This document shows, in pieces, positions 1 through 27,302 of a DNA stretch of 33,905 nucleotides. This DNA comes from a virus (lineage: Duplodnaviria; Heunggongvirae; Uroviricota; Caudoviricetes): IMG/VR virus record IMGVR_UViG_2541047807_000007. One strand, 5' to 3'. The notes below the pieces were generated by a model. It saw nothing but the letters and a program-made list of their open reading frames with translations. It was not told where the DNA came from and did no database searches. Each line of letters starts with the position of its first letter. Position 1 is the stretch's first letter. The translations under genes and the position numbers were made by a program.

Positions 1-996
1 TTATGGACGCATTATGGACATTCCTGACACCGGGTTAAGAGTCACAGCATCTTGTAAGAAATCCGGTGCAAAGTGTGCGTAGGTCATAGTTTGCTGAATG
101 TTAGAATGACCCAGGATGCGCTGCAATGTGATTATGTTACCTCCATTCATTATAAAATGTGTGGCAAATGTATGCCTCAAAACATGCACTGCCTGTCCGT
201 CAGGTAAATCGGGTTTTACTTCCCTGAGAGCGTTGCGCACTTTGTAGTAACTGGCATTAAAAAGCCTGCCAGAATTTTTGGTTTTGATCCGTTTAATCAA
301 GTCCTGCGAAACGGGAATTGTCCTGCGCTTTCCGTTTTTGGTTTTCATAAACGTAACCATTTGGTTAATGATGTGTTCAGCTTTTAAATTAGACACTTCA
401 CTCCAGCGTCCACCAGTAGAAAGGCAGACCAGAGTCGTATTTAATTCATCACCATCAAGCATGGATAGCAGCCGCGTAATCTCTTCACTGGACAAAAAAG
501 CCATTTCCGTAACAGCTTCACGTAACCGCTTCACCTCACGGAACGGGTTGTGAGAGTGATATTCACCGGCGTCAATTAACTTGGTGAACATCCCGCTCAT
601 TATTGCCAGATGCCGATTTACGCTGGCTGGTTTTAGACCGTCGTTCATCATTACAACGCGATAATCAGTTATCGTTTTCTTTGTTAGCTGGTCCGCCCTG
701 GACACTCCCATCTCAGCAAATTTGGCAATTATTGTCGTCAAACGCCCCCGTTCAATATCTCCACGCTCATGTGATTTTCCGTGATATATCCACCATCTGC
801 CTAACAACTCTGTAAGAGTTCGGCGGTCGGCCGGCTTCTCCAACCACTCTTTGTTGTGGTAGTTAACCAGGACATGACGCTCGAATGCCTGGGCTTCACC
901 TTTAGTTTTAAATTTCCGCCTGATACGTTTTCCATCTGCACCCTGCGGCCTGACGTCCACTTCATAACGACCATCATCGAGCTTTTTAATAGACAT
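1..996 (-). CDS. int: Tyrosine recombinase, P2-type prophage integrase (331 aa)
   Basis: Full ORF with SD (GGAGGG) before the ATG; C-terminal R..H..RHT..Y-type integrase catalytic region (HVLRHTFATH, TYAHF); first gene at prophage edge, transcribed with the repressor as in P2. Confidence 0.9.
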   Translation of the reverse strand: MSIKKLDDGRYEVDVRPQGADGKRIRRKFKTKGEAQAFERHVLVNYHNKEWLEKPADRRTLTELLGRWWIYHGKSHERGDIERGRLTTIIAKFAEMGVSRADQLTKKTITDYRVVMMNDGLKPASVNRHLAIMSGMFTKLIDAGEYHSHNPFREVKRLREAVTEMAFLSSEEITRLLSMLDGDELNTTLVCLSTGGRWSEVSNLKAEHIINQMVTFMKTKNGKRRTIPVSQDLIKRIKTKNSGRLFNASYYKVRNALREVKPDLPDGQAVHVLRHTFATHFIMNGGNIITLQRILGHSNIQQTMTYAHFAPDFLQDAVTLNPVSGMSIMRP

Positions 997-1089
997 AAAG
1001 CCCTCCGATGACGCTGTTTACTTCTACTACTTGAAAATTAATGCAATTTTCTTTCGTACATTTACTGCACACATATGCTGAATAAATCG

Positions 1090-1389
1090 TCAGCCAGTCT
1101 TTTGGTCTGAGTGGTGCAAGGTTGTTGAGTCTTGCCCAATGTGTGCGAGCGCCGGGGCTATTTGTCCGGCAGCGGGATCTGTCTCATCAAACATGAACCA
1201 GTCACGGTATTTTCTGAACCTTTCTACTTTAAAAAACTTCTTAGCATTTTCTAGGGACATCATAGCCTTACCTGATTCATAACCTGCATATGTGGTGTAG
1301 TTGATGCCAGCTAGTTCAGCTACCTCCTTCATTTTCAGACGTTCAGACTCACGGATAAGCTTCAAACGTTCGCTAGTGTCAGTTGACAT
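1090..1389 (-). CDS. C: Immunity repressor C-like HTH protein (99 aa from internal ATG; track ORF extends to 1440)
   Basis: HTH segment LKMKEVAELAGINYTTYAGYESGK; divergent from the early operon; the internal Met gives a P2 C-sized protein with an SD-like GAGGT upstream, whereas the upstream ORF start has none. Confidence 0.7.
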   Translation of the reverse strand: MSTDTSERLKLIRESERLKMKEVAELAGINYTTYAGYESGKAMMSLENAKKFFKVERFRKYRDWFMFDETDPAAGQIAPALAHIGQDSTTLHHSDQKTG

Positions 1390-1447
1390 AAATTCTCTAA
1401 CCTCGTATTCTTTTGCATAGTTGATATGATTTATCAGCATCTAACGA

Positions 1448-1468
1448 CTCTAAATCGCTCTAGATCGC
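1448..1468. promoter_or_regulatory. Tandem direct repeats CTCTAAATCGC / CTCTAGATCGC (10-bp period) in the C-cox switch region; candidate repressor operator
   Basis: Seen directly in the 103-bp intergenic between divergent C and cox; P2-type repressors are known to bind direct repeats flanking the early promoter. Confidence 0.5.
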
Positions 1469-1492
1469 TGACATCAATGTGAGGATAGCAAA

Positions 1493-1849
1493 ATGAATGT
1501 CGGATCTGAAATTTGTGACGAGAAAAGACAAGAAGTTTCTGCTCTTAAAAAAAACAAGCGTGATTCCATTAAGTTGGCTGCGGATCCGTCAGATTTACTG
1601 TCGAAAGAGGGTTTTGCTCTTTACATCGGTAAGACTCCTCGTGCGGTGGCTGAAATGGCACGAGCTGGAAAGCTGCCAGCATTCTATATGACAGACCCGT
1701 TAAAGCCGGGCGGTCACGCTGAGTTATGGATTAATCGTCGTGAGTGGGACAAATATGCAGCTCAACTAGTCGATGAAGCTCCGACAGAATGGCATGACTG
1801 GAAGAACCGCATAAGTTACAGCAAATCCAGACATGGCCACGCGGCCTAA
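1493..1849 (+). CDS. cox: Cox/Apl-type excisionase-like HTH early regulator (118 aa)
   Basis: First gene of the rightward early operon, SD GAGGA before the ATG; HTH-like YIGKTPRAVAEMARAGKLP; assigned by position and fold type. It is longer than my recollection of P2 Cox, so the immunity region may be a variant type. Confidence 0.6.
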   Translation: MNVGSEICDEKRQEVSALKKNKRDSIKLAADPSDLLSKEGFALYIGKTPRAVAEMARAGKLPAFYMTDPLKPGGHAELWINRREWDKYAAQLVDEAPTEWHDWKNRISYSKSRHGHAA

Positions 1850-1858
1850 GGAGGAGCC

Positions 1859-2323
1859 ATGAGGCAAGATTTAAATAAAACATCGGTGACTATCATCAGA
1901 GGAAACCTTGAAGATGCATCACCATCTAACAGCCTGACTATTACGTATAGTGAGTTTGCTAATAGTACGAAAGAGTATAAATCAGCCGATGAATTGAGAA
2001 AACAAAATATCATTTTGGATAATGATGAACTTGTTTTTATTAGTTCAGATGGTGATGAAGAAATTCTACGGCTGAATTTGAAATCTTTATTTCATGACTC
2101 TTTTTTGCGCATTAAATATGAATGCGTTGGTATGACCGTTCAAGAGCGCATGGAACTCGCTAAGGCTCTTCGTGAAACGATAATTTCTAAATCAGGCGAT
2201 ATAAATAGTATTAAATGGTCAATAGGGCTTGATGACTGGAAAAGTATTTTTGACATGATGACGCATCCGTATAAACAGCATACGGATGCAAGATGCTATT
2301 TTAAAAATGATTTATATCAATAA
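1859..2323 (+). CDS. Hypothetical protein (154 aa), AT-rich cargo ORF translationally coupled to cox
   Basis: Strong SD GGAGG 4 nt before the ATG, 9 nt after the cox stop; much lower GC than flanking backbone; no motif I recognise. Confidence 0.6.
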   Translation: MRQDLNKTSVTIIRGNLEDASPSNSLTITYSEFANSTKEYKSADELRKQNIILDNDELVFISSDGDEEILRLNLKSLFHDSFLRIKYECVGMTVQERMELAKALRETIISKSGDINSIKWSIGLDDWKSIFDMMTHPYKQHTDARCYFKNDLYQ

Positions 2324-2495
2324 AGCCTTTGAGTTGGACTGGCTTTTTAGGGTGAATGATCTCTCTTAATTGAATAGTTAATTCATCCACTTTTTTAGCG
2401 TCCTCAAAATCTCCCATTGGAGTTGGTAGGGTATTTGCTAATGCAACCGCTTTTTCGAGAGTGGTTATAAGTTCGTCAATATTTTGATTATTCAT
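2301..2495 (-). CDS. Hypothetical small protein (64 aa), convergent with and overlapping the 3' end of the 154-aa ORF
   Basis: Good SD (GAGGT, about 6 nt spacing) before the ATG; protein-like acidic/helical composition; the orientation is antisense to the early operon, so its reality is uncertain. Confidence 0.4.
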   Translation of the reverse strand: MNNQNIDELITTLEKAVALANTLPTPMGDFEDAKKVDELTIQLREIIHPKKPVQLKGFIDINHF

Positions 2496-4310: not shown

Positions 4311-4582
4311 GTATTCGTATTGAAATTGGCGAACGTTATGTCGTTACCAGTGACAGCTTTCAGTTTATTCTCCACGAGAAAAAGAGAGCGGAAAGCGGTA
4401 AAAACGCCGGTCAGGAATGGCTGGCGGTGGTTGGTTATTACCCGAAATTAAGCCAGCTCGTTTCCGGCCTGATGCATCACGATATTCTGACCGGAAGCGC
4501 AAAGTCTTTTGCTGATTTAAACGCGCAGGTTGAGCAACTCAGCAAGCGTTGCTCAGAGGCTTTTGGCTCATATGGCCGTTAA
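4307..4582 (+). CDS. Small early hypothetical protein (91 aa)
   Basis: ATGA overlap with the upstream gene; 11-nt overlap with the A start. Confidence 0.55.
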   Translation: MSIRIEIGERYVVTSDSFQFILHEKKRAESGKNAGQEWLAVVGYYPKLSQLVSGLMHHDILTGSAKSFADLNAQVEQLSKRCSEAFGSYGR

Positions 4583-6848
4583 AGCCTCCGGGCGTTTTGT
4601 CCCTCCGTCAGCATTTGCCGCAGGCACCGGTAAGGCGTTTACCGGTGCTTATGCATGGAACGCGCCACGCGAGGCTGTCGGGCGCGAAAGACCCCTTACA
4701 CGTGACGAGATGCGTCAGGTGCAAGGTGTTTTATCCACGATTAACCGCCTGCCTTACTTTTTGCGCTCGCTGTTTACTTCACGCTATGACTACATCCGGC
4801 GCAATAAAAGCACGGTGCACGGGTTTTATTTCCTCACATCCACTTTTCAGCGTCGTTTATGGCCGCGCATTGAGCGTGTGAATCAGCGCCATGAAATGAA
4901 CACCGACGCGTCGTTGCTGTTTCTGGCAGAGCGTGACCACTATGCGCGCCTGCCGGGAATGAATGACAAGGAGCTGAAAAAGTTTGCCGCCCGTATCTCA
5001 TCGCAGCTTTTCATGATGTATGAGGAACTCAGCGATGCCTGGGTGGATGCGCATGGCGAAAAAGAATCGCTGTTTACGGATGAGGCGCAGGCTCACCTGT
5101 ATGGTCATGTTGCTGGCGCTGCACGTGCTTTCAATATTTCCCCGCTCTACTGGAAAAAATACTGTAAAGGACAGATGACCACGAGGCAGGCATATTCTGC
5201 CATTGCCCGCCTGTTTAACGATGAGTGGTGGACTCATCAGCTTAAAGGCCAGCGTATGCGCTGGCATGAGGCGTTACTGATTGCTGTAGGGGAGGTCAAT
5301 AAAGACCGTTCTCCTTATGCCAGTAAACACGCCATTCGTGATGTGCGTGCACGCCGCCAGGCAAATCTGGAATTTCTTAAATCGTGTGACCTCGAAAACA
5401 GGGAAACCGGCGAGCGCATCGACCTTATCAGTAAGGTGATGGGCAGTATTTCTAATCCTGAAATTCGTCGGATGGAGTTGATGAACACCATTGCCGGTAT
5501 TGAGCGTTACGCCGCCGCAGAGGGCGATGTGGGGATGTTTATCACGCTGACCGCGCCGTCAAAGTATCACCCGACACGTCAGGTCGGAAAAGGCGAAAGT
5601 AAAACCGTCCAGCTTAATCACGGCTGGAATGATGAGGCATTTAATCCAAAGGATGCGCAGCGATATCTCTGCCGTATCTGGAGCCTGATGCGCACGGCAT
5701 TCAAGGATAATGATTTACAGGCCTACGGTTTGCGTGTCGTTGAGCCACACCACGACGGAACGCCGCACTGGCATATGATGCTTTTTTGTAATCCACGCCA
5801 GCGTAACCAGATTATCGAAATCATGCGTCGCTATGCGCTTAAAGAGGATGGCGACGAAAGAGGAGCCGCGCGAAACCGTTTTCAGGCAAAACACCTTAAC
5901 CGGGGCGGTGCTGCGGGGTATATCGCGAAATACATCTCAAAAAACATCGACGGATATGCACTGGATGGTCAGCTCGATAACGATACCGGCAGGCCGCTGA
6001 AAGACACAGCAGCGGCTGTTACCGCATGGGCGTCAACGTGGCGTATCCCGCAATTTAAAACGGTTGGTCTGCCGACAATGGGGGCTTACCGTGAACTACG
6101 CAAATTGCCTCGTGGCGTCAGCATTGCTGATGAGTTTGACGAACGCGTCGAGGCTGCACGCGCCGCCGCAGACAGTGGTGATTTTGCGTTGTATATCAGC
6201 GCGCAGGGTGGGGCAAATGTCCCGCGCGATTGTCAGACTGTCAGGGTTGCCCGTAGCCCGTCGGATGACGTTAACGAGTATGAGGAAGAAGTCGAGAGAG
6301 TGGTCGGCATTTACGCGCCGCATCTCGGCGCGCGTCATATTCATATCACCAGAACCACGGACTGGCGCATTGTTCCGAAAGTTCCTGTCGTTGAGCCTTT
6401 GACTTTAAAAAGCGGCATCGCCGCGCCTCGGAGTCCTGTCAATAACTGTGGAAAGCTCACCGGTGGTGATACTTCGTTACCGGCTCCCACACCTTCTGAA
6501 CACGCCGCAGCAGTGCTTAATCTGGTTGATGACGGTGTTATCGAATGGAACGACACGGAGGTCGTGAGGGCGCTCAGGGGGGCATTAAAACACGACCTGA
6601 GAACACCAAATCGTCAGCAAAGAAACGGAAGCCCGTTAAAACCACATGAAATTGCACCATCGGCCAGACTGACCCGGTCGGAAAGAATGCAAATTACCCG
6701 TATCCGCGTTGACCTTGCTCAGAACGGTATCAGGCCGCAGCGATGGGAGCTTGAGGCGCTGGCGCGTGGCGCGACCGTAAATTATTACGGGAAATCTTTC
6801 AATTATCAGGTCGCTGATGAGTGGCCTGGATTTTTGTTACCCATTTGA
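4572..6848 (+). CDS. A: Replication initiation endonuclease gpA (rolling-circle HUH/Y initiator; 758 aa from first ATG, track ORF starts at a TTG at 4530)
   Basis: HUH metal-binding motif (PHWHMMLF) and catalytic tyrosine motif (GYIAKYISKN); size and position of P2 gpA. Confidence 0.9.
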   Translation: MAVKASGRFVPPSAFAAGTGKAFTGAYAWNAPREAVGRERPLTRDEMRQVQGVLSTINRLPYFLRSLFTSRYDYIRRNKSTVHGFYFLTSTFQRRLWPRIERVNQRHEMNTDASLLFLAERDHYARLPGMNDKELKKFAARISSQLFMMYEELSDAWVDAHGEKESLFTDEAQAHLYGHVAGAARAFNISPLYWKKYCKGQMTTRQAYSAIARLFNDEWWTHQLKGQRMRWHEALLIAVGEVNKDRSPYASKHAIRDVRARRQANLEFLKSCDLENRETGERIDLISKVMGSISNPEIRRMELMNTIAGIERYAAAEGDVGMFITLTAPSKYHPTRQVGKGESKTVQLNHGWNDEAFNPKDAQRYLCRIWSLMRTAFKDNDLQAYGLRVVEPHHDGTPHWHMMLFCNPRQRNQIIEIMRRYALKEDGDERGAARNRFQAKHLNRGGAAGYIAKYISKNIDGYALDGQLDNDTGRPLKDTAAAVTAWASTWRIPQFKTVGLPTMGAYRELRKLPRGVSIADEFDERVEAARAAADSGDFALYISAQGGANVPRDCQTVRVARSPSDDVNEYEEEVERVVGIYAPHLGARHIHITRTTDWRIVPKVPVVEPLTLKSGIAAPRSPVNNCGKLTGGDTSLPAPTPSEHAAAVLNLVDDGVIEWNDTEVVRALRGALKHDLRTPNRQQRNGSPLKPHEIAPSARLTRSERMQITRIRVDLAQNGIRPQRWELEALARGATVNYYGKSFNYQVADEWPGFLLPI

Positions 6849-7107
6849 GTAAAAATGCAGCGTGATTTTATATGCCTTTGAATGGATTATGCGAAGCGCC
6901 TCTAAGGCAGATGAGGAGCAATAGCATGCTGAAGTAGAAGGCTAAATTGTATTGAATCGCTAGCATGTAATTTAAGGCAGCTATTTGATTCGAGTCATAA
7001 AAGAGCATCTATTTCGGCTAATAAAACCATTGCGAGTGACCTTTTGTCGAAGCATAATTCATCTCGAGCGAAGTCTTGCTAGTCTTTCATCGGAATGATG
7101 ACAGGCG

Positions 7108-7139
7108 CAAAAAAACCACCCTGGCAGGTGGTTTTTTTG
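7108..7139. terminator. Bidirectional intrinsic terminator (A7 - ACCACC-CTGGCA-GGTGGT - T7)
   Basis: GC-containing stem flanked by an A-tract upstream and a T-tract downstream, about 260 bp after the A stop. Confidence 0.7.
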
Positions 7140-7836
7140 TTTGAAGCATACTAAAGAATAATACTTACATGGATATTACTGACGTTTACTGACAAACCAC
7201 TTGGACTACCATATGGATAGCCAAAGAGGGCCAGAACGAGAATGCAGTAATAGCACTTCTTCATATCTCCTCCTGTAAGCAGAGGGCAATTTCCGCCGAT
7301 ATATGCGCTTCTGAGGCGGAGTTACTATTTAGCGAAGTCTTGCCCTGAAATAATGCTCTGTTTAAACGCAAAGTGATCTGGCATATCACCGAACAGAGAG
7401 CCTGAACAACACAACATATAGTATGTCGTTGTTTCTGGTTGCATTTTATGTTGTGTAATACTGGTTTTGCATCAAGGATGTTTGAGCTTTTTTTGATATA
7501 GCTCAAAGTAAAAAGCAGGGACTACGGATGATAAGGTATTGAAAGCAATGTAAATTTTTTAAAGTTATTAGTGGCTAAAAAATGCACGGTTTCAATATGG
7601 CGGACTTAAATAAGCAATTAAAAAAGTCATAAATATCACTAAAATCATGGTGTTACGTTTTTTTTGTGGGAGCTGCGGTGACGCTTAAGTTGATTTGTCA
7701 TTAAATAAGCCGTGCATGCAACAAGTGAATGTTTTTGCATGCGTCGGGGATGCCCGTTCCAGCTGCTCGCGGTCAGAGCTGGTGCGGATCCATAGTATCT
7801 ATGCAACTGCATTAAAACCGCCACATGAAGCGGGCG

Positions 7837-7855
7837 GGCGAGGCGGGGAAAGCAC
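7837..7855. other. cos cohesive-end site, 19-nt GGCGAGGCGGGGAAAGCAC
   Basis: Exact match to the P2/P4 cohesive-end sequence as I recall it, inside a local GC-rich island in otherwise AT-rich DNA, in the expected A...cos...Q interval. Confidence 0.65.
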
Positions 7856-7961
7856 CGCGCGTAAGATAAACAGAAGAGCGAAGGATTATGGTTGAGTATT
7901 TGTGTTTTTGTACATATGATAAAAAGGTGTTTACGCTTAAAAACACATCAAAGGAGATGAT

Positions 7962-9263
7962 ATGGAAAATATAAAGATTGATAAGTTTCTCACTATTCAA
8001 AAAGTTGATATTCCTCTTAAGAAAGTGAATATATTTATTGGGCCTCAGGCACAGGGGAAAAGTGTCATTGCAAAGCTAATAAAATATTTTAAAGATTATC
8101 CTATGGATATACTACGAGCTTCAACAGAGGGTAAAACTAAAAGAGATATATTGAAGGAGCAAAAGAATAAGTTTAGTAAAATTTTCCCTCAGCAGTATTG
8201 GGCTGATGATGAGTTTTTTATTGAGTATAGTAATAAGCACTATTGGGTGCGGATTACTAATCGAAAAAATAGCAAAGGGTCATTGAAAATAGACCTTTCT
8301 GAGAATTTAACGAAGACGATTGCTAAACTTCGTTTGATTGTACGAAAGGATTTAGATGAAAATATTGAGAATTCACTTGCAGAAAGCGTTACGAGAAGAC
8401 GTAAACGCGGAATTGAACATGAATTGCGAGTATGTCTTTCTCTAGGATTGTTTTCAGAACCAGAAACAAAGCTTGAAAGTGTTTTTTATATCCCCGCAGG
8501 GCGCTCTTTTTTTGCTAATTTGCAAAAAAATGTGTTTTCATTTTTATCCAGTAGTATAGAAATTGACTACTTTTTGACAGAGTTTGGTTCTCTGTATGAA
8601 CAAACAAAAAAATTATTTAACCAAGATTACATGATTAGGATGCTTAGGGGGGCTGTGCCTCAACATGTTAATAAACTTGTGGAGGAGTTGATTTGCGGAA
8701 AATATATAACAGAAAAGGGTGAGGATTTTATTCGTCATGCTGCTAAGAAGACGAATCTTAACAACTCGAGCTCAGGGCAGCAAGAAGCGTTACCAATGGC
8801 TTTAATGTTATCCTCATGGCCGTATTTACAGTCTGTGACTAGTAAGAGTTTTATTATTGAGGAGCCGGAGGCTCATCTGTTTCCTTCTGCCCAAGCAAAA
8901 GTTGTATCTTTAATAGCCTCAGCGTATAACCAAGCAGAAAGCTATTGTAGCTATACAATAACAACACATAGTCCATATATTCTAAGTGCCTTCAATAATT
9001 TGATTCAAGCAGGTAATGCATTAAAGTGTATTAAGGGCAAGAATAATACCGATATCGAACGCTTATATAAGCTTGTTCCAGAGTCTCAAATTATTGATTT
9101 TGATGATGTGACAGCTTATATGGTTAATGCTGGGAAAGTGACGGAAATACTGGATTCCGAACTAAATATATTAGATGCGAATGAAATAGATAGGATTTCC
9201 TCTATTTTTTCAGAGACTTTTGATGCATTGATTGATATCGAATATTCGGCTACTGTGAATTAG
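7962..9263 (+). CDS. OLD-like / AAA_21-type ABC ATPase (433 aa), no fused nuclease domain; cargo
   Basis: Walker A GPQAQGKS near the N-terminus, Q-loop-like YIPAGR, ABC signature-like SSGQQ, Walker B FIIEEPEAHLFP, H-loop TTHSP; SD AAGGAG; very AT-rich. Confidence 0.8.
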   Translation: MENIKIDKFLTIQKVDIPLKKVNIFIGPQAQGKSVIAKLIKYFKDYPMDILRASTEGKTKRDILKEQKNKFSKIFPQQYWADDEFFIEYSNKHYWVRITNRKNSKGSLKIDLSENLTKTIAKLRLIVRKDLDENIENSLAESVTRRRKRGIEHELRVCLSLGLFSEPETKLESVFYIPAGRSFFANLQKNVFSFLSSSIEIDYFLTEFGSLYEQTKKLFNQDYMIRMLRGAVPQHVNKLVEELICGKYITEKGEDFIRHAAKKTNLNNSSSGQQEALPMALMLSSWPYLQSVTSKSFIIEEPEAHLFPSAQAKVVSLIASAYNQAESYCSYTITTHSPYILSAFNNLIQAGNALKCIKGKNNTDIERLYKLVPESQIIDFDDVTAYMVNAGKVTEILDSELNILDANEIDRISSIFSETFDALIDIEYSATVN

Positions 9264-9271
9264 GTGATTGA

Positions 9272-9709
9272 ATGTGTAAAAATTGCAAAGGAAAAACAAA
9301 AAATAAAATCATTGTGCTATCTGATAAAGGAACATCAACGCAATTGTCAGTCACAAATGATAATGAGTTGGAAGTTGAGCATAAGTTAATAGATGGTTGC
9401 GCTATTGTTGTTGGAGAGCGGTGTGATCATTATTTGAAGATTTATAACAATCAGGATGTTTCACATCTTTTTGTTGAACTTAAAGGAAGTGATGTTGAAA
9501 AAGCTGTTAAACAGATAGTGACAACTTTAAAGTCAGGTGTGATTAATGTAGGTGCTAAAGAAAAAAAACATGGTGCTATTGTTAGCACTAGGAATCCGCT
9601 AAACTCAACAGAAACCAATAGGTTAAAGAAGAAAATTCTTTTGAGTGACGGAGTGAATTTGCATTTCTATAAAATGAAGGCGCAGCAAAAAATAACTTCT
9701 TTTACATGA
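9272..9709 (+). CDS. Hypothetical 145-aa Cys-containing partner of the ATPase (candidate effector)
   Basis: Starts 8 nt after the ATPase stop with SD AGGTGA; N-terminal CxxC (MCKNCKGK), C43/C51-DH, VELKGSD and LLSDG acidic motifs; same AT-rich composition as the ATPase. Confidence 0.65.
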   Translation: MCKNCKGKTKNKIIVLSDKGTSTQLSVTNDNELEVEHKLIDGCAIVVGERCDHYLKIYNNQDVSHLFVELKGSDVEKAVKQIVTTLKSGVINVGAKEKKHGAIVSTRNPLNSTETNRLKKKILLSDGVNLHFYKMKAQQKITSFT

Positions 9710-9722
9710 AGTGTTCTCTTGT

Positions 9723-9746
9723 ACAGGCATGCATTTGCATGCCTGT
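9723..9746. terminator. Perfect 11-bp-arm palindrome ACAGGCATGCA-TT-TGCATGCCTGT between the cargo operon and Q; likely bidirectional terminator
   Basis: Seen in sequence between convergent genes; T-rich run downstream on the plus strand. Confidence 0.55.
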
Positions 9747-9812
9747 CGTGTAATCTTTTACACTATATTTGTGTTGGTTCTAATCTTGTTATGTGTTTGT
9801 TTCGGTGATGGG

Positions 9813-10832
9813 TCATAATGAATAAGTTCGAAAGCGAAATACATCTTCGCCAACCCAACAGTTAATTTCTTTACATCGCTCTTGGAGGAACGTTAGCTCG
9901 TTGCGTACAAAGACTTGTGCTGCTTTTGTTACATCTCCAAATCCTCCTGTGTTGTTGGGCATCATTCCTATCATTTGGGGAGGCACGCGATGAGCACTCA
10001 TTAGATCTTCAGCACTTGCTTTTTTGATATTAAAAAAATCGTCCTTCGTCGCCACTTCACTGAGCGGGATAATTTTAATGCCGTCGGCTTTCCCCTGTGG
10101 GGCATAGAGAAACAGATTTTTAAAATTGTTGCGGCCTTTCGACTTCACCATGTTTTCGCGAAGCATTTCGATATCGTTGCGGTCCTGCACGGCATCGGTG
10201 ACGTACATGATGTATCCGGCATGTGCGCCGTTTTCGTAATACTTGCGGCGGAACAGCGTGGCCGACTCATTCAGCCAGGCAGAATTAAGGGCGCTGAGAT
10301 ATTCCGGCAGACCGTACAGCTCCTGATTGATATCCGGCTCCAGCAGGTGAAACACGGAGCCGGGCGCGAAAGGTGTCGGCTCGTTAAAGGACGGCACCCA
10401 CCAGTAAACATCCTCTTCCACACCACGGCGGGTATATTTTGCCGGTGAGGTTTCCAGTCTGATGACCTTACCGGTGGTGCTGTAGCGCTTTTCCAGAAAC
10501 GCATTACCGAACACCAGAAAATCCAGCACAAAGCGGCTGAAATCCTGCTGGGAAAGCCACGGATGCGGGATAAATGTCGAGGCCAGAATATTGCGTTTGA
10601 CGTAAATCGGCGAGCTGTGATGCACGGCAGCACGCAGACTTTTTGCCAGGCCGGTAAAGCTGACCGGTGGCTCATACCATCTGCCGTTACTGATGCACTC
10701 GACGTAATCCAGAATGTCACGGCGGTCGAGTACCGGCACCGGCTCACCAAAGGTGAATGCCTCCATTTTCGGGGCGCTGGCGGTCATTTTTTTTGCCGCA
10801 GGTTGCGGTGTTTTCCCTTTTTTCTTACTCAT
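9813..10832 (-). CDS. Q: Portal (capsid) protein gpQ (339 aa)
   Basis: P2 order and size; ATGA overlap with the P stop; first gene inside cos on the leftward late operon. Confidence 0.9.
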   Translation of the reverse strand: MSKKKGKTPQPAAKKMTASAPKMEAFTFGEPVPVLDRRDILDYVECISNGRWYEPPVSFTGLAKSLRAAVHHSSPIYVKRNILASTFIPHPWLSQQDFSRFVLDFLVFGNAFLEKRYSTTGKVIRLETSPAKYTRRGVEEDVYWWVPSFNEPTPFAPGSVFHLLEPDINQELYGLPEYLSALNSAWLNESATLFRRKYYENGAHAGYIMYVTDAVQDRNDIEMLRENMVKSKGRNNFKNLFLYAPQGKADGIKIIPLSEVATKDDFFNIKKASAEDLMSAHRVPPQMIGMMPNNTGGFGDVTKAAQVFVRNELTFLQERCKEINCWVGEDVFRFRTYSL

Positions 10833-12604
10833 CAGTAAAACTCCAGAATGGTGGATGTCAGCGGGGTGCTGATACCGGCGGTGAGTGGCTCATTTAACAG
10901 AGCGTGCATGGTCGCCCAGGCGAGGTCGGCGTGGCTGGCTTCCTCGCTGCGGCTGGCCTCATAGGTGGCGCTGCGTCCGCTGCTGGTCATGGTCTTGCGG
11001 ATAGCCATAAACGAGCTGGTGATGTCGGTGGCGCTGACGTCATATTCCAGACAGCCACGGCGAATAACGTCTTTTGCCTTGAGCACCATTGCGGTTTTCA
11101 TTTCCGGCGTGTAGCGGATGTCGCGCGCGGCGGGATAGAACGAGCGCACGAGCTGGAACACGCCGACACCGAGGCCGGTGGCATCAATACCGATGTATTC
11201 GACGTTGTATTTTTCGGTGAGTTTGCGGATGGATTCCGCCTGAGTGGCAAAGTCCATGCCTTTCCACTGGTGACGCTCAAGTATTCTGAATTTGCCACCG
11301 GCCACCACCGGCGGTGCCAGCACCACGCATCCGGCGCTGTCGCCACGGTGTGACGGGTCGTAACCAATCCATACCGGGCGGGAGCCGAACGGATTCGCGG
11401 CAAACGGCGCATAGTCTTCCCATTCTTCCAGCGTGTCGACCATGCAGCGTTGCAGCTCCTCGAACGGGAACACCGACGCCTTGTCGTCAACAAATTCACA
11501 CATGAACAGGTTTTTAAAATCGTCGGCGCTGTTTTCACGTTTGAGCTGCTCAATGTCGAACAGCGTGCAGCCACCTTTCAGGGCGTCCTCAATGGTGACA
11601 ATCTGCCGCCACTGGCCGTCCGCACAGAGAAGCCCACCGGCAAGGGCGTTATGACTGACGTCGATTTCCACGCGTTCGGCGGCGCTGGCGCGTCCCCGGT
11701 TGAACAGTTCACCTGACCAGAACGGGTAGGCGTCGTGCGCCAGCGTGGACGGGGTGGAGAAATAGGTCGAACGCAGGTGACTCTGTGAGGCCATACCTGA
11801 TGCCACCTTACGCAGTACCTGAAAATTCGGGATCCAGAAAATCTCGTCGACGTACAGGTCGCCGTTATGGCTCTGTGCGGTGTTGGAGTTGGTGCCGAGA
11901 AAAATCAGTTTTGCGCCGTTATTGCCCAGGACAATCGGGTCACCGGTCAGGTCAACGTCAACCAGACGGGCAAAGGCGATGATGTATTCGCGGAACACAT
12001 ACGCCTGCGTTTTACTGGCCGACAGAAAAATCTGGTTATGACCGGTTTTCAGGGCGCGCAGCAGCGCCTCGCGGGAAAAATAAAACGTCGCGCCAATCTG
12101 GCGGGATTTCAGGATATCGCGGATGCGGTGCTCAAGCCCGGCGCGATACCAGTGCAACTGATAGTCGAAAGACTGCTCAAAGAAAATCTGCTCCAGCTTT
12201 TCGATGGCCTCGTCACTGAAAAAATTCTTTTTCGGTTTGCGACGCCCGCCTTTGTTGCGGTTAGCGACGTTCGGATTAAGGTCTGCCTCGTTGCCGGTCT
12301 GACTGTAGCGGTTTACCCGTGCCAGTCGTTCAATCTGGCGTCCCAGCAGGTCAATTTCCTTGAAGTCACCGCCGGTTTTCTGCGGTTTGATGATGAGCTG
12401 GGTCAGTCGCGCTTCCAGACTCATTTCGACACGGCTGATGGGGGCAACGCTGTCCCAGCCGTCGCGCTGTTTCCAGCTCTGCACCGTCGGGCGTTTCATC
12501 TGCAACATGGCGGCAATCTGCGGCACGGAAAACCCCTGCCAGTACAGCAGCGCCGCCTGACGACGCGGGTCGTGTAAAAGAGTGGTGTCTGTGGTGATGG
12601 TCAT
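10832..12604 (-). CDS. P: Terminase large subunit (ATPase) gpP (590 aa from internal ATG; track ORF extends to 12634)
   Basis: The internal Met gives the P2 gpP length of 590 aa with SD GAGGT; position upstream of Q. Confidence 0.9.
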   Translation of the reverse strand: MTITTDTTLLHDPRRQAALLYWQGFSVPQIAAMLQMKRPTVQSWKQRDGWDSVAPISRVEMSLEARLTQLIIKPQKTGGDFKEIDLLGRQIERLARVNRYSQTGNEADLNPNVANRNKGGRRKPKKNFFSDEAIEKLEQIFFEQSFDYQLHWYRAGLEHRIRDILKSRQIGATFYFSREALLRALKTGHNQIFLSASKTQAYVFREYIIAFARLVDVDLTGDPIVLGNNGAKLIFLGTNSNTAQSHNGDLYVDEIFWIPNFQVLRKVASGMASQSHLRSTYFSTPSTLAHDAYPFWSGELFNRGRASAAERVEIDVSHNALAGGLLCADGQWRQIVTIEDALKGGCTLFDIEQLKRENSADDFKNLFMCEFVDDKASVFPFEELQRCMVDTLEEWEDYAPFAANPFGSRPVWIGYDPSHRGDSAGCVVLAPPVVAGGKFRILERHQWKGMDFATQAESIRKLTEKYNVEYIGIDATGLGVGVFQLVRSFYPAARDIRYTPEMKTAMVLKAKDVIRRGCLEYDVSATDITSSFMAIRKTMTSSGRSATYEASRSEEASHADLAWATMHALLNEPLTAGISTPLTSTILEFY

Positions 12605-12670
12605 GAATACCTCGCCGTGATGAATACACGGCAAGGCTACTGAGTCGCGCCCCGCGATTCGCTAAGGTGC

Positions 12671-14767: not shown

Positions 14768-15511
14768 ATGACGAGTCCCGCACAGCGCCACATGATGCGG
14801 GTCTCGGCAGCGATGACCGCGCAGCGGGAAGCCGCCCCGCTGCGACATGCAACTGTCTATGAGCAGATGCTGGTCAAGCTGGCCGCAGACCAGCGCACAC
14901 TGAAAGCGATTTATTCAAAAGAGCTGAAGGCCGCGAAAAAACGCGAACTGCTGCCGTTCTGGTTGCCGTGGGTGAACGGCGTGCTGGAGCAGGGCAAAGG
15001 TGCACAGGATGACATTCTGATGACGGTCATGCTGTGGCGTCTGGATACCGGCGATATTGCCGGTGCGCTGGAGATTGCCCGTTATGCCCTGAAGTACGGT
15101 CTGACCATGCCGGGTAAACACCGCCGCACCCCGCCGTACATGTTCACCGAGGAGGTGGCGCTCGCGGCCATGCGCGCCCACGCTGCCGGTGAGTCTGTGG
15201 ATCCCCGCCTGCTGACGGAGACCCTCGAACTGACCGCCACGGCTGACATGCCTGATGAAGTGCGCGCAAAGCTGCACAAAATCACCGGTCTGTTTCTGCG
15301 TGACGATGGTGATGCCGCCGGTGCGCTGGCGCACCTGCAACGTGCGACACAGCTCGACTGTCAGGCAGGCGTCAAAAAAGAGATTGAACGACTGGAGCGG
15401 GAGCTGAAACCGAAGCCGGAGCCGCAGCCAAAAGCGGCCACCCGTACCCCGCGTAAGACCCGGAGCGTGACACCGGCAAAACGTGGACGCCCGAAAAAGA
15501 AAGCCAGTTAA
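14768..15511 (+). CDS. M: Terminase small (endonuclease) subunit gpM (247 aa)
   Basis: Length and position of P2 gpM; basic C-terminal tail. Confidence 0.88.
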   Translation: MTSPAQRHMMRVSAAMTAQREAAPLRHATVYEQMLVKLAADQRTLKAIYSKELKAAKKRELLPFWLPWVNGVLEQGKGAQDDILMTVMLWRLDTGDIAGALEIARYALKYGLTMPGKHRRTPPYMFTEEVALAAMRAHAAGESVDPRLLTETLELTATADMPDEVRAKLHKITGLFLRDDGDAAGALAHLQRATQLDCQAGVKKEIERLERELKPKPEPQPKAATRTPRKTRSVTPAKRGRPKKKAS

Positions 15512-22344: not shown

Positions 22345-24594
22345 ATGAGCACAAAATTCAAAACCGTTATCACTACTGCCGGTGCAGCAAAGCTGGCAGC
22401 GGCAACCGCGCCGGGAGGGCGGAAGGTCAACATTACCACGATGGCCGTCGGGGATGGCGGTGGTAAATTGCCTGTCCCGGATGCCGGACAGACCGGGCTT
22501 ATCCACGAAGTCTGGCGACATGCGCTGAACAAAATCAGTCAGGACAAACGAAACAGTAATTATATTATCGCAGAGCTGGTTATTCCGCCGGAGGTGGGCG
22601 GTTTCTGGATGCGTGAGCTTGGCCTGTACGATGATGCGGGAACATTAATTGCCGTGGCGAACATGGCCGAAAGTTATAAACCCGCTCTTGCCGAAGGCTC
22701 AGGGCGTTCGCAGACCTGCCGCATGGTCATCATCGTCAGCAGTGTGGCCTCAGTGGCGCTGACCATTGACACCACAACGGTGATGGCGACGCAGGATTAC
22801 GTTGATGACAAAATTGCAGAACACGAACAGTCACGACGCCACCCGGACGCCTCACTGACTGCAAAAGGTTTTACTCAGTTAAGCAGCGCGACCAATAGTG
22901 AATCTGAAACGCTGGCTGCAACGCCGAAAGCGGTTAAGGCAGCGTATGACCTTGCTAACGGAAAATATACCGCTCAGGACGCCAGCACGGGGCGAAAAGG
23001 TCTTGTTCAGCTAAGTAGTGCCATCAACAGCGAATCTGAGACGCTCGCAGCAACGCCGAAGGCAGTTAAGACAGCATATGACCTTGCTAATGGCAAATAC
23101 ACCGCGCAGGACGCCACCACCGCGCGAAAAGGCCTTGTTCAGCTCAGTAGTGCCACCAACAGCGATTCTGAAACGCTGGCCGCAACGCCAAAGGCGGTTA
23201 AGACAGCGTATGACCTTGCTAACGGGAAATACACTGCACAGGATGCCACCACAGCGCGAAAAGGTCTTGTCCAGCTAAGTAGCGCCACCAACAGTGATTC
23301 TGAAACGCTGGCCGCAACACCAAAAGCGGTGAAGTCTGCCAATGACAATGCTGAAAAACGTCTTCAGAAAGATAAGAACGGTGCGGATATTCCTGATAAA
23401 GAACGCTTCCTGAGTAACATTAATGTTTACAGCAAAGGTGAAGTGGATAAGAAAAAGGGAATGCGAAAGTATTCGTTTGCAGCCCCTGCAAATGTCGTTG
23501 CCGGGAAGTGGTATCCCGTTATCTTTCGCCGTGCTGCCAGCCTTTCAGGAGAAATGGCATCCCGCGTCGTTATTTCCACTGGTTGTTATAACGGCGATTA
23601 TGTAATGAATAACTGCGAGTTTAATGGCATGGTTATGCCCGGAGGATGGACTGATCGCGGTTCATATGCGGCAGGCTATTTCTGGACGTATCAGACCAAT
23701 GAGCGTTCAATTCATTCCATTGTTACAAGCCTGAAAGATGATGATGTATGTAGTGTTTTTTATGTTGAAGCCAGAGCTTTCCCTGTGCAAATTCTTGCAG
23801 AGGAAGGGCTAACGGTTATTGTTCCGACAGAGGATTATGTCGTCGGTCAGACGACATATAAGTGGGGGGCAACTAATCCTGCCACAGAAAGCACGAATGC
23901 ACAGGCTATTCTGGATTTTAAAAATGGGCGCGGTTATTACTGCTCACATCCATTTATTTCCAGCCTTTCAGGAAATGCTGCAACAGCAACAAAGTTAGCG
24001 AACGCAAGAAATATTAATGGTGTCAGATTTGATGGCTCTGCCGATATAAATATTAATACACTGGTATCCAGAAACCGTGTTACTGCATTAGGTGGGAGCG
24101 CAAAGGGTACACCAGGTATTCAGATGTATGAGGCATACAACAATGGCTACCCAACAGCCTATGGTAATGTGCTTCATCTCACTGGCGTAACCGCAGTAGG
24201 AGAGGGTGAGTTACTTATTGGCTGGAGTGGAACCAGCGGTGCTCATGCTCCGGCATATATTCGCTCCCGACGAGATACCACAGATGCTAACTGGTCTGGA
24301 TGGGCGCAACTATATACAACTGCTCATAAACCCTCAGCGGGAGATGTTGGTGCATACACCAAAGCTGAGTCAGATTCACGTTATGTGAGAGACATGCGGC
24401 TGGGCGGTGCATCTACATATAAACCAGCAAATAATGGTATTACATGGACGCATCAGGCTCCGTCAGGTTGCGTATATACCGGCATTATTGTTCAGGATAC
24501 CGGCTCAAACTCTGCCGATAACATTGGTGGCGTATATTACAGACCGGTGCAGAAATACATTAACGGGACATGGTATAACGTGGCGCAGGTATAA
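22345..24594 (+). CDS. H: Tail fibre protein gpH (749 aa) with internal tandem repeats and a distinct distal domain
   Basis: Conserved N-terminal baseplate-attachment region, then repeats of the KGLVQLSSATNS-SETLAATPKAVK-AYDLANGKYTAQDA motif, then a distal domain. Confidence 0.88.
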   Translation: MSTKFKTVITTAGAAKLAAATAPGGRKVNITTMAVGDGGGKLPVPDAGQTGLIHEVWRHALNKISQDKRNSNYIIAELVIPPEVGGFWMRELGLYDDAGTLIAVANMAESYKPALAEGSGRSQTCRMVIIVSSVASVALTIDTTTVMATQDYVDDKIAEHEQSRRHPDASLTAKGFTQLSSATNSESETLAATPKAVKAAYDLANGKYTAQDASTGRKGLVQLSSAINSESETLAATPKAVKTAYDLANGKYTAQDATTARKGLVQLSSATNSDSETLAATPKAVKTAYDLANGKYTAQDATTARKGLVQLSSATNSDSETLAATPKAVKSANDNAEKRLQKDKNGADIPDKERFLSNINVYSKGEVDKKKGMRKYSFAAPANVVAGKWYPVIFRRAASLSGEMASRVVISTGCYNGDYVMNNCEFNGMVMPGGWTDRGSYAAGYFWTYQTNERSIHSIVTSLKDDDVCSVFYVEARAFPVQILAEEGLTVIVPTEDYVVGQTTYKWGATNPATESTNAQAILDFKNGRGYYCSHPFISSLSGNAATATKLANARNINGVRFDGSADININTLVSRNRVTALGGSAKGTPGIQMYEAYNNGYPTAYGNVLHLTGVTAVGEGELLIGWSGTSGAHAPAYIRSRRDTTDANWSGWAQLYTTAHKPSAGDVGAYTKAESDSRYVRDMRLGGASTYKPANNGITWTHQAPSGCVYTGIIVQDTGSNSADNIGGVYYRPVQKYINGTWYNVAQV
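22864..23334 (+). repeat. In-frame tandem repeat inside H: 3 full plus 1 partial copies of a 132-bp (44-aa) unit
   Basis: Repeat units begin at residues K174, K218, K262 and K306; nearly identical at protein level but with many synonymous DNA differences. Confidence 0.8.
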
Positions 24595-24597
24595 TTT

Positions 24598-25125
24598 ATG
24601 CAGCATTTAAAAAATATTACGGCGGGTAATCCAAAAACGGTTGAACAATATCAATTGACAAAGGACTTTGATGTTGTCTGGTTTTTTTCAGAAGATGGTA
24701 AGAACTGGTACGAAGAACAAAAGTATTTTGCTGATGACACGATAAAAATAGCGTACGACAAAGATAATATCATCCGCTATGTGGAAAAGGATGTGACAGC
24801 TATCAGACCGGATGGATTAAGTGTTGTTGAAGTGGCGGATATTACTGCTAACCGACGGGCGGACATTTCAGGGAACTGGATGTTTAAGGACGGCAAAGTG
24901 ATTAAACGCATTTATACGGCAGAGGAATTACAGCAGCAGGCAGAAATTCAGAAAGCCAGACTTCTTGCAGATGCTGAATCCGTGATTTTGCCGCTGGAGC
25001 GCGCGGTCAGACTGAACATGGCAACAGATGAGGAGCGCACACGGCTGGAGGCTTGGGAACGTTACAGCGTTGTGGTCAGTCGTGTGGATCCTACAAATCC
25101 TGAATGGCCGGAAATGCCGCAATAA
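24598..25125 (+). CDS. G: Tail fibre assembly chaperone gpG (175 aa)
   Basis: Length and position of P2 gpG, immediately after H. Confidence 0.85.
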
Positions 25126-25158
25126 GTTGTATGAGCTCTGGTGGGAGCTTACATATCT

Positions 25159-25202
25159 ATGGCACAGAGTAAAGCCTAATCTGACAGTCCGCTCTGTGCC
25201 AT
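25159..25202. other. 11-bp perfect inverted repeat ATGGCACAGAG-N22-CTCTGTGCCAT downstream of G
   Basis: Seen in sequence 34 bp after the G stop; no flanking T-tract; possible end of the late operon or a protein-binding site. Confidence 0.35.
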
Positions 25203-25318
25203 TACCGGACATACTGAGCAGAAGGCTAAAAAGGACGCTTTCAGGACATATAGCAAGGGAGCAAGGATGAAAGAATTAACCCAGTATATTTAATGTTTCA
25301 ATCATGATAGTTTCTGAA

Positions 25319-25347
25319 TTAAAGGGGGGGGTACCCACCCCCTTTAA
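25319..25347. terminator. G/C-rich hairpin (TTAAAGGGGGGGG-TAC-CCACCCCCTTTAA) immediately after the stop of the minus-strand 92-aa gene
   Basis: Near-perfect inverted repeat abutting the stop codon, with AT-rich flanks on both strands. Confidence 0.55.
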
Positions 25348-25626
25348 TTACTTGTTCCACTCAGTCAGAATTTGGTTACTAACTTCATCTGAGAGATTGT
25401 ACCAATAAGCTGAGTTATTGGTTGCATCTACAACAATAAGCTTATCATCACTATCCATGACCGCCCTCACAATTTTGGCTGCATCCTCGGCAGAGTAACT
25501 ACAGTTAACATACCAGTTCGATTCAGTTGTTAAAGCCCAATTTCCTAAAGATTTAATTGCATCATACACAGCCGCATAATCTTTCGTTTTAATGAGGTCG
25601 TAAGTAATAAATAAATTATTAGCCAT
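25348..25626 (-). CDS. Hypothetical 92-aa protein (cargo), downstream of the DUF3606-like gene
   Basis: SD GGGAG before the ATG; aromatic-rich small globular-looking protein; AT-rich; no family I can name. Confidence 0.6.
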   Translation of the reverse strand: MANNLFITYDLIKTKDYAAVYDAIKSLGNWALTTESNWYVNCSYSAEDAAKIVRAVMDSDDKLIVVDATNNSAYWYNLSDEVSNQILTEWNK

Positions 25627-25645
25627 AAATCATCTCCCAAAGGAC

Positions 25646-25672
25646 AAAGAAAAAAGCGCCTAGAAAGGCGCT
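25646..25672 (-). terminator. Intrinsic terminator (AGCGCC-TTTCTA-GGCGCT + T6) between the DUF3606-like gene and the 92-aa gene
   Basis: On the minus strand a GC stem is followed directly by TTTTTTCTTT; lies between two co-oriented genes, suggesting attenuation or independent expression. Confidence 0.6.
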
Positions 25673-25678
25673 CATATA

Positions 25679-27230: not shown

Positions 27231-27302
27231 GCCAGGTCAAATAGCGTCTCATGCACTGCCCAACAGAAAATAGTTGCACCCATTAACCACGGAGTTAAAC
27301 GG

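What the first reader, a model, noticed from the sequence alone, without database searches (positions are those of the whole stretch)
7837..7855. cos lies upstream of the cargo operon, placing the cargo on the Q side of cos (the extreme left end of packaged DNA)
The 19-mer GGCGAGGCGGGGAAAGCAC (P2/P4 cohesive end as I recall it) sits 106 bp before the ATPase start. In P2 the old/tin cargo is on the A side of cos and Q follows cos closely. Here the A side is gene-less and the cargo is between cos and Q, so these genes would be at one terminus of the virion DNA.
Basis: partly seen in the sequence, partly recalled or inferred. Interest (0 to 1): 0.4.

Follow-up and report, generated by a model that had tools for sequence, protein, structure and literature searches.

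The report
P2-type cos with left-end cargo
The 19-base sequence is the genuine packaging cut site (cos) of a P2-like prophage, and the two accessory genes do sit right next to it at what would be the left end of the virion DNA, but this cos-to-portal position has been a recognised cargo slot in P2-like phages since the 1990s, so the finding is correct but ordinary.

Summary
Window 7837-7855 is an exact, single copy of the P2 cosL 19-mer. It lies in a ~62-bp conserved cos core (7801-7862), between replication gene A and portal gene Q, in the P2 orientation. The AAA_15 ATPase starts 106 nt after it.

The prophage carries every essential P2 gene intact. The A side has no gene: it is an unoccupied slot, and relatives carry ~2.5 kb inserted at about 7688.

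The arrangement is not unusual. Cargo of more than 400 bp lies between cos and Q in 31 of 76 P2-like prophages from different species, and in 6 of 79 close E. coli-type relatives. Variability always starts 8 bp after the 19-mer, the same junction as the P4 satellite hotspot.

There are precedents:
- phiCTX has cosL, then ctx, then the Q homologue.
- E. coli phage pro147 has a reverse transcriptase plus AlkB between Q and cos.
- Dodd & Egan 1996 and Nakayama 1999 named cosL-Q an insertion hotspot.
- Rousset 2022 lists this cargo in the gpA-gpQ hotspot.

The module (~7863 to ~10040) is AT-rich and includes a foreign 3' end of Q. This suggests replacement by recombination between the cos core and Q. 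Virion ends were not tested.

The parts
4572..6848 (+). Replication endonuclease gene A, the left boundary of the gpA-gpQ hotspot
   Evidence: Pfam Phage_GPA 1e-122; 97.6% aa identity to P2 gpA; RefSeq CDS boundaries transferred from NC_009801
6849..7800 (.). A-side spacer with no gene: an unoccupied A-side ('tin-old') cargo slot. It consists of backbone segments 6849-~7688 and ~7685-7800, with the insertion point used by relatives at about 7688
   Evidence: No CDS in RefSeq on near-identical or homologous DNA in the rows listed; GC 0.33-0.43; the small ORFs have no PHROG hit; L097 and Peduovirus OU784750 carry ~1.5-2.5 kb inserted at about 7688
7801..7836 (+). Conserved right-end half of the cos core (GCAaCTGCATTAAAACCGnnnnnnnAAGCGGGCg), presumed to be terminase recognition sequence
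   Evidence: Near-invariant across 150 unique P2-like cos regions; also present in P4 and in P4-like satellites
7837..7855 (+). cosN: the 19-nt cohesive-end sequence, identical to P2 and P4
   Evidence: Exact single match; identical to AF063097 1-19 'cosL' and to X51522 1-19
7856..7862 (+). Conserved heptamer on the left-end side of cos (CGCGCGT here; consensus TGCGCGC). It is the last conserved bases before the variable cargo
   Evidence: Information content is ~2 bits at +1..+6 and falls to ~0 from +8 in loci with Q-side cargo; P4-like satellites show the same boundary
7892..7920 (+). Promoter-like site (TTGAGT-17-TATGAT) for the cargo operon, inside the imported module. Inferred only
   Evidence: Consensus scan, 9/12 matches and no better than the shuffle background; AGGAG lies 7 nt before the ATG
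7962..9263 (+). Cargo gene 1: a 433-aa AAA_15/AAA_21 (OLD/ABC-type) ATPase and candidate defence protein
   Evidence: Pfam AAA_15 4.7e-21; PADLOC PDC-M29A 1.9e-31 and AriA 7e-26; only weak NCBIfam hits
9272..9709 (+). Cargo gene 2: a 145-aa protein of unknown function (WP_000335230)
   Evidence: PADLOC PDC-M29B 1.6e-4 only; no Pfam, PHROG or NCBIfam hit; listed with an AAA_15/AAA_21 partner in the P2 hotspot table of Rousset 2022
9721..9763 (.). Two adjacent hairpins between the convergent cargo operon and Q, a putative bidirectional terminator that replaces P2 tQ
   Evidence: MFE -23.5 and -23.1 kcal/mol on the two strands, z = -6.0 and -7.2; no similarity to P2 tQ
9813..10832 (-). Portal gene Q. 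Its last ~230 bp (9813-~10040) are heterologous and AT-rich and belong to the imported module
   Evidence: Pfam Phage_portal; DNA identity to P2 is 95-100% down to about 10055, then 52-60%; this tail variant occurs only with this cargo
10832..12634 (-). Terminase large subunit gene P (annotated start about 12604), the enzyme that would cut at cos
   Evidence: Pfam Terminase_6N, Terminase_6C and Terminase_5; 100% aa identity to P2 gpP
14768..15511 (+). Terminase small subunit gene M
   Evidence: 98.4% aa identity to P2 gpM

Best explanation
Window 7837-7855 is the functional-type cos cleavage sequence of an apparently intact P2-like (Peduovirus) prophage. The gpA-gpQ accessory region of these phages consists of two cargo slots separated by a ~62-bp conserved cos core.

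- The A-side slot is the classical tin-old region. It is empty in this prophage.
- The cosL-Q slot is filled with a two-gene candidate defence operon: an AAA_15 ATPase plus a 145-aa partner. The operon has its own promoter region, is transcribed away from cos toward the 3' end of Q, and ends at a hairpin pair.

After induction, terminase (gpM/gpP) would nick on either side of the 19-mer. The virion left end would then be a 5' single-stranded GGCGAGGCGGGGAAAGCAC, followed by 7 bp of conserved duplex and then the cargo module.

The module (about 7863-10040, AT-rich) was most likely acquired from another P2-like phage by replacement recombination, with one crossover in or at the cos core and the other inside Q.

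Shown here: the sequence identity of cos, the conserved core and its sharp +8 boundary, gene order and intactness, how often the arrangement recurs, and the mosaic joint in Q. Inferred: cleavage at this site in this phage, the promoter and terminator roles, the defence function, and the recombination route.
For: - cos identity: exact single P2 cos 19-mer.
- Conserved core: 36 + 19 + 7 bp across 150 unique P2-like loci, with variability starting at +8. This fits the 55-bp P2/P4 core of Ziermann & Calendar as cited in PMC5694545.
- Intactness: all essential P2 genes are present at 90-100% aa identity.
- Cargo composition: GC 0.31-0.39 against 0.52-0.60 in the core genes.
- Cargo distribution: present in only 10 of 5426 E. 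coli genomes, always next to the portal gene.
- Independent assortment: the same cargo is combined with different A-side DNA.
- Empty A-side slot: relatives carry inserts at about 7688.
- Mosaic joint inside Q.
- Recurrence: 31/76 species representatives and 6/79 close relatives have cargo between cos and Q. Of the ORFs there, 56/70 are convergent with Q, and 8 of the 10 largest match defence families such as Avs5, LmuB and OloB.
- Precedents: phiCTX cosL-ctx-Q, pro147, the P4 gop/beta operon at the same junction, and literature statements.
- Prior listing: the cargo appears in the Rousset 2022 P2 hotspot table.
Against: - No virion DNA data exist for this prophage.
- The heptamer after the 19-mer is CGCGCGT rather than the near-invariant TGCGCGC. 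An effect on cleavage cannot be excluded, although P4 itself has C at +1.
- The copy of this A-cos-cargo region in E. coli E24377A (100% identical over 7700-9900) lies in a degraded prophage, so some carriers are certainly non-inducible.
- The promoter call is no better than shuffle background.
- The PDC-M29B match is weak.
Confidence: 0.88

Rival explanations
1. The 19-mer is a relic or chance copy, and the working cos of this element lies elsewhere or is absent because the prophage is defective. In that case the cargo is not at a virion terminus.
For: No experimental ends are available. The +1 and +7 bases of the flanking heptamer deviate from consensus. The same region occurs in a degraded prophage in E24377A.
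Against: It is the only match in 33.9 kb even at 3 mismatches. It sits in the full conserved core at the canonical A-Q position and in the canonical orientation. All P2 morphogenetic and terminase genes are intact in this window. P4, which is packaged efficiently, also has C at +1.
Confidence: 0.07
2. The cargo and its cos-proximal flank were captured from a P4-like satellite. The P4 hotspot lies on the same side of the shared cos, so recombination at the cohesive end could have moved it. This is the P2-P4 shuttling idea.
For: The P4 hotspot begins at exactly the same +8 junction on the left-end side. The rare CGCGCG variant after the 19-mer is shared by this cargo type and by P4 itself. In IMG/VR the 25-mer occurs only in 3 P4-like satellites and in 4 P2-like prophages with this cargo.
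Against: C at +1 is rare in P4-like satellites too (3 of 71). None of 38 Q-side cargo segments shares 200 bp or more with 70 P4-like cargo segments, and the ATPase has no real homologue there. The module includes a divergent 3' end of portal gene Q, which P4 lacks, so the donor was a P2-like phage.
Confidence: 0.04
3. cos, rather than the cargo, has moved. On this view a rearrangement relocated the cos core to the A-proximal side of a formerly A-side (tin-old type) cargo.
For: The total A-Q interval (2964 bp) is similar to that of P2 (~3460 bp).
Against: The A-side backbone segments on both sides of the usual A-side insertion point (~7688) are retained next to the cos core, exactly as in phages that have A-side cargo. 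The variable DNA starts at the canonical +8 junction used by 37 other Q-side cargos and by P4-like satellites. The module extends into Q.
Confidence: 0.01

Closest known systems
Bacteriophage P2 cos region and tin-old ('TO') locus (AF063097)
   Same: The 19-nt cohesive end and the flanking core are identical. The position is the same, between A and Q. The terminase and portal genes are the same (P 100% and Q 90.6% aa identity).
   Different: In P2 the cargo (orf91, tin, old) lies between A and cosR, and Q ends 167 bp after cosL. Here the A side is empty, and 1957 bp with two genes lie between cos and Q. P2's tQ terminator and the last ~75 codons of Q are replaced.
Pseudomonas phage phiCTX (AB008550): cosL, then ctx, then orf1 (Q homologue)
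   Same: The layout is the same: cos, then a promoter, then a lysogenic-conversion gene transcribed away from cos, then terminators, then a convergent portal gene. The cohesive ends are annotated in the record.
   Different: The genus is different (Citexvirus), the cos is 21 nt with another sequence, and the cargo is a pore-forming cytotoxin rather than a candidate defence ATPase.
Retrons Ec67/Ec86 in 186-related prophages (Dodd & Egan 1996, title cited) and E. coli phage pro147 (KR073660)
   Same: Accessory DNA replaces the stretch between cos and the end of the portal operon in E. coli P2/186-like prophages. In pro147 a reverse transcriptase plus AlkB lie between Q and cos and are convergent with Q.
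   Different: The cargo is different. In pro147 the A side is also filled. In the present window the replacement runs past the terminator into Q.
P4 satellite hotspot (gop-beta-cII, between cos and int; Rousset et al. 2022)
   Same: It uses the same cos and the same junction (19-mer plus 7 bp, then variable DNA), on the same left-end side. The first genes are transcribed away from cos.
   Different: The element is different: the right boundary is int rather than Q. No cargo was shared in the samples compared.
gpA-gpQ defence hotspot of P2-like prophages (Rousset et al. 2022; NAR 2026 gkag898)
   Same: This locus falls inside that hotspot. The AAA_15/AAA_21 plus WP_000335230 arrangement is listed in their Table S5A.
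   Different: Those papers treat gpA-gpQ as one hotspot 'adjacent to cos'. The texts read here do not say on which side of cos the cargo lies.

Membership tests
P2/P4-type cos site (Peduoviridae) | 19-nt cohesive-end sequence GGCGAGGCGGGGAAAGCAC or a close variant | tested here: met
   Exact match at 7837-7855, unique in the window; identical to P2 1-19 and P4 1-19
P2/P4-type cos site (Peduoviridae) | Embedded in the ~55-bp core conserved among P2-family phages and P4 (Ziermann & Calendar 1990, as cited in PMC5694545) | tested here: met
   36 bp upstream and 6-7 bp downstream are conserved across 150 unique P2-like and 71 P4-like loci. The window matches except at +1 (C for T) and +7 (T for C)
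P2/P4-type cos site (Peduoviridae) | Located between replication gene A and portal gene Q, with the 19-mer reading toward Q, and with cognate terminase genes present | tested here: met
   Gene order and strands; gpP 100% and gpM 98% identical to P2
P2/P4-type cos site (Peduoviridae) | Cut by terminase to give 5' 19-nt overhangs in virion DNA | not testable with these tools
   Needs induced virions and end sequencing
cosL-Q cargo slot of P2-like phages (Dodd & Egan 1996; Nakayama et al. 1999) | Non-core genes between cosL and the Q homologue, absent from close relatives that share the flanks | tested here: met
   The two genes occur in 10 of 5426 E. coli genomes, while the cos core occurs in more than 2000. 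73 of 79 close relatives have only 94-185 bp there
cosL-Q cargo slot of P2-like phages (Dodd & Egan 1996; Nakayama et al. 1999) | Foreign composition and its own transcription signals | tested here: inconclusive
   The GC drop to 0.31-0.39 is clear. The promoter-like site is no better than background. The hairpins are strong but lack a T-run
P2 tin-old (A-side) cargo region | Accessory genes between gene A and cosR | tested here: not met
   No annotated CDS and no ORF with a family hit in 6849-7836. Relatives show the insert site at about 7688 is unoccupied here
PADLOC candidate system PDC-M29 (cargo identity) | Both components match the A and B models | tested here: inconclusive
   A: 1.9e-31, with the best stretch covering only the C-terminal third. 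B: 1.6e-4
PADLOC candidate system PDC-M29 (cargo identity) | Confers phage resistance | not testable with these tools
   No experiment was possible. PDC families are themselves only candidates

The most novel reading that the evidence does not exclude
The gpA-gpQ 'hotspot' of P2-like phages is really two independently assorting cargo slots pivoting on the cos core. The two slots share a length budget: the A-side gap is significantly shorter when the Q-side slot is filled. The left slot uses the very same +8 junction as the P4 satellite hotspot. If this partition has not been described, it gives a concrete handle on the Rousset et al. hypothesis that the cohesive ends themselves seed cargo exchange. 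That hypothesis predicts one breakpoint fixed at the cos core and a second at variable depth in Q or A, as seen here inside Q.
Probability: 0.3. Interest if true: 0.35.

Novelty: already known. Interest (0 to 1): 0.15.

Why it matters
The direct value is for annotation. It fixes the cos of this prophage and the exact limits of its accessory module, about 7863-10040, which includes a swapped 3' end of Q. It also shows that the A-side slot is empty.

More generally, surveys that treat gpA-gpQ as one hotspot could separate cargo by its side of cos. In this sample the two sides behave as alternative slots with a sharp, satellite-shared boundary on the left-end side. That is relevant to how defence genes move between P2-like phages.

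It does not reveal a new kind of element or mechanism.

Tried and rejected
1. 'C at +1 after the 19-mer marks a P4 origin.' This was prompted by P4's CGCGCGC and by the 25-mer occurring in IMG/VR only in 3 satellites plus 4 carriers of this cargo. I rejected it for three reasons: 68 of 71 psu-anchored satellites have T at +1, no cargo DNA is shared, and the module carries a Q tail.

2. A non-coding RNA in the gene-less A side. The Rfam E-value scan gave only sub-threshold hits: RNAI at 26 bits against a gathering score of 47, plus Phe_leader and mir-363. I treated these as chance.

3. Hidden small genes on the A side. Six ORFs of 37-81 aa had no PHROG hit, and the two longest had no Pfam hit.

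4. Packaging direction and cos sub-site roles in P2. I looked for text on these, but the Christie & Calendar review is not held and the other papers only cite Ziermann & Calendar. I therefore make no claim about which end enters the capsid first.

5. The P2 tQ terminator next to Q. It is not present; different hairpins replace it.

6. An E. coli-wide count of Q-side occupancy from the E. coli genome collection. I did not attempt it, because P4 satellites share the cos core and would confound place counts. I used the IMG/VR and GTDB locus samples instead.

Full report
**1. The observation**

The 19-mer GGCGAGGCGGGGAAAGCAC is present once in the window, at 7837-7855 on the + strand. No other site matches even with three mismatches, and shuffled sequence gives a mean of 0.01 matches. 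It is identical to bases 1-19 of the P2 genome AF063097, annotated 'cosL; left cohesive end', and to the first 19 bases of satellite P4, X51522. The ATPase ORF starts at 7962, exactly 106 nt after the 19-mer.

In P2, Q ends 167 bp after cosL behind the tQ terminator, and orf91, tin and old lie between A and cosR.

**2. Context**

The window is a P2-like prophage in prophage order, running from int to ogr. Every essential P2 gene is intact at 90-100% amino-acid identity: Q, P, O, N, M, L, X, Y, K, R, S, V, W, J, I, H, G, FI, FII, E, T, U, D, ogr, B and A. The P2 accessory genes orf91, tin, old and fun(Z) are absent.

The terminase genes are essentially P2's own: gpP is 100% identical and gpM 98%. 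The 19-mer has the same orientation relative to Q as in P2. By the P2 map convention, the DNA to its right (toward Q) would therefore be the left end of the virion chromosome.

**3. The extent of cos**

I collected 80 loci from one genome per species and 80 IMG/VR loci, anchored on Q. In each I located cos, the end of Q and the end of A.

Across 150 unique cos regions, the conserved block consists of three parts:
- about 36 bp on the A side (GCAnCTGCATTAAAACCGnnnnnnnAAGCGGGCn);
- the 19-mer;
- 7 bp on the Q side (TGCGCGC).

In loci that have extra DNA between cos and Q, information content falls from about 2 bits to about 0 at position +8 after the 19-mer. The window fits this picture, since homology to other phages stops at 7861-7867. 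Its heptamer, however, is CGCGCGT, deviating from the consensus at +1 and +7.

**4. The cargo**

- 7962-9263 encodes a 433-aa AAA_15/AAA_21 ATPase. PADLOC matches are PDC-M29A at 1.9e-31 and AriA-like at 7e-26.
- 9272-9709 encodes a 145-aa protein with only a weak PDC-M29B match at 1.6e-4.
- GC is 0.31-0.39, against 0.52-0.60 in A, Q and P.
- The pair occurs in 10 of 5426 complete E. coli genomes, always beside the portal gene. The cos core is found in more than 2000 genomes.
- In 8 of those 10 genomes homology begins only at 7802, so the same Q-side cargo is joined to different A-side DNA (also L168 and L171 against L169 and L173).
- The RefSeq protein WP_000335230 (the 145-aa product) appears with an AAA_15/AAA_21 partner in the P2-hotspot table of Rousset et al. 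2022.

**5. The limits of the module**

On the left, the module begins at +8 (about 7863).

On the right, DNA identity to P2 is 95-100% through P and Q down to about 10055. It then drops to 52-60% for the last ~230 bp of Q, and there is no similarity beyond that. This Q tail is AT-rich. Among 156 loci it is found only with this cargo. P2's tQ is absent; instead two strong hairpins lie at 9721-9763.

The imported segment is therefore about 2.2 kb and includes a foreign C-terminal coding part of the portal gene. This points to replacement recombination with another P2-like phage, with one crossover at the cos core and the other inside Q. That route is an inference.

**6. The A side**

The stretch 6849-7836 has no annotated CDS on near-identical DNA (99.8% over 6849-7800) in E24377A, nor on the homologous stretch that 148 E. 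coli genomes carry at >=80% coverage, none annotated in the rows listed. Its small ORFs have no family hits, and there is no credible Rfam match.

Relatives show the insertion point. L097 and Peduovirus OU784750 contain the same 6849-~7688 and ~7685-7800 segments with roughly 1.5-2.5 kb inserted between them. In this prophage the classical A-side slot is simply unoccupied.

**7. How unusual the arrangement is**

| Sample | Loci with >400 bp between cos and Q | Size of that interval | Remaining loci |
|---|---|---|---|
| Species representatives (76 loci with a cos) | 31 (41%) | median 1780 bp, maximum 3977 bp | 161-386 bp |
| IMG/VR loci closest to this Q (79 loci) | 6 (8%) | 1454-2103 bp (median ~2010) | 94-185 bp |

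- The A-side gap is shorter when the Q side is filled. Medians are 1450 against 2673 bp in the species set and 1368 against 2837 bp in the IMG/VR set, with Mann-Whitney p of about 5e-4 in both. This is not corrected for phylogeny.
- The Q-side segments carry real ORFs, and 56 of 70 are convergent with Q, as in this window.
- Eight of the ten largest match defence families: Avs5, Lamassu LmuB, Olokun OloB, NsnA, HEC-02/PD-T4-4-like and PDC candidates.
- P4-like satellites, anchored on psu, show the same +8 boundary on the same side of cos, with 48 different flanks among 71 elements. In P4 itself gop and beta start 247 bp from the left end.

**8. Precedents**

- phiCTX is annotated as cosL 1-21, promoter, ctx 362-1222 (+), terminators, then the Q homologue 1417-2469 (-).
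- E. coli phage pro147 has AlkB and a reverse transcriptase between Q and cos. These are convergent with Q, and other genes lie on the A side.
[quoted passage not shown] - Rousset et al. 2022 and the 2026 NAR study define the hotspot as gpA-gpQ 'adjacent to cos'. The text read here does not say which side.

**9. Rivals**

- *Relic or non-functional cos.* This cannot be fully excluded without virion DNA. Against it are the uniqueness of the site, the complete core, the canonical position and the intact packaging genes. I note that E24377A carries this A-cos-cargo region (100% identical over 7700-9900) in a degraded prophage, with a truncated portal and an IS21-family insertion.
- *Origin from a P4-like satellite.* I tested and rejected this.
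- *Relocation of cos.* The retained A-side backbone and the canonical +8 junction contradict it.

**10. Verdict**

Observation and interpretation are correct, but the arrangement is an established feature of P2-like phages, and the cargo itself is already catalogued. The modest additions from this analysis are:
- the exact module limits, including the mosaic joint inside Q;
- the empty A-side slot;
- the quantified split of the gpA-gpQ hotspot into two slots around a sharply bounded cos core, whose left junction is shared with P4-like satellites.

Interest is low.

Noticed in passing
window 9813-10055: Portal gene Q is a mosaic. It is 95-100% identical to P2 at the DNA level down to about 10055, but only 52-60% identical in its last ~230 bp. 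That tail is AT-rich and, among 156 loci, occurs only with this cargo.
   Followed up: yes
window 7856-7862: The conserved heptamer after the 19-mer is CGCGCGT instead of TGCGCGC. C at +1 is seen only with this cargo among 150 unique P2-like cos regions, and in P4 plus 3 of 71 P4-like satellites. Its functional effect is unknown.
   Followed up: yes
window 6849-7690: An ~840-bp AT-rich stretch downstream of gene A is conserved at 86-99% in about 150 E. coli genomes with no annotated gene in the rows listed and no ORF family hits. A sub-threshold Rfam RNAI hit (26 bits, gathering score 47) lies at 7107-7217 on the - strand. Why it is conserved is unexplained.
   Followed up: partly
window 25125-27300: The position of P2 fun(Z), between G and FI, holds three different small genes instead: 25348-25626 (-) phrog_1090, 25679-25897 (-) DUF3606/phrog_10779, and 26350-27042 (+) phrog_11802. 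All are of unknown function.
   Followed up: partly
window 1-2323: The integration and immunity module is heterologous to P2 (int 53%, C 44%, Cox 35% aa identity). An extra 154-aa ORF at 1859-2323 has no Pfam hit. The phage is probably heteroimmune to P2 and uses another att site.
   Followed up: no
window 22345-24594: Tail-fibre gene H is a mosaic. Residues 1-251 are 94% identical to P2, a second copy of residues 168-251 follows at 81%, and the rest is diverged. G is only 75% identical.
   Followed up: no
L003 (NC_009801 1003429-1013629): E. coli E24377A carries this A-cos-cargo region (100% identical over window 7700-9900), but its portal gene is truncated and fused to tail genes, and an IS21-family ISEc62 interrupts the tape-measure gene. 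That copy is a dead prophage which retains the cargo.
   Followed up: partly
loci L004-L163: Across P2-like prophages the A-side gap is significantly shorter when the Q-side slot is filled (Mann-Whitney p about 5e-4 in two samples). This suggests a shared cargo length budget or alternative use of the two slots. The test is not corrected for phylogeny.
   Followed up: partly
L009, L041, L072, L091 (Q-side segments): The cosL-Q slot in other genera holds recognisable defence genes: Avs5 in Phytobacter, Lamassu LmuB in Citrobacter, Olokun OloB in Mixta, and NsnA in an IMG/VR contig.
   Followed up: partly
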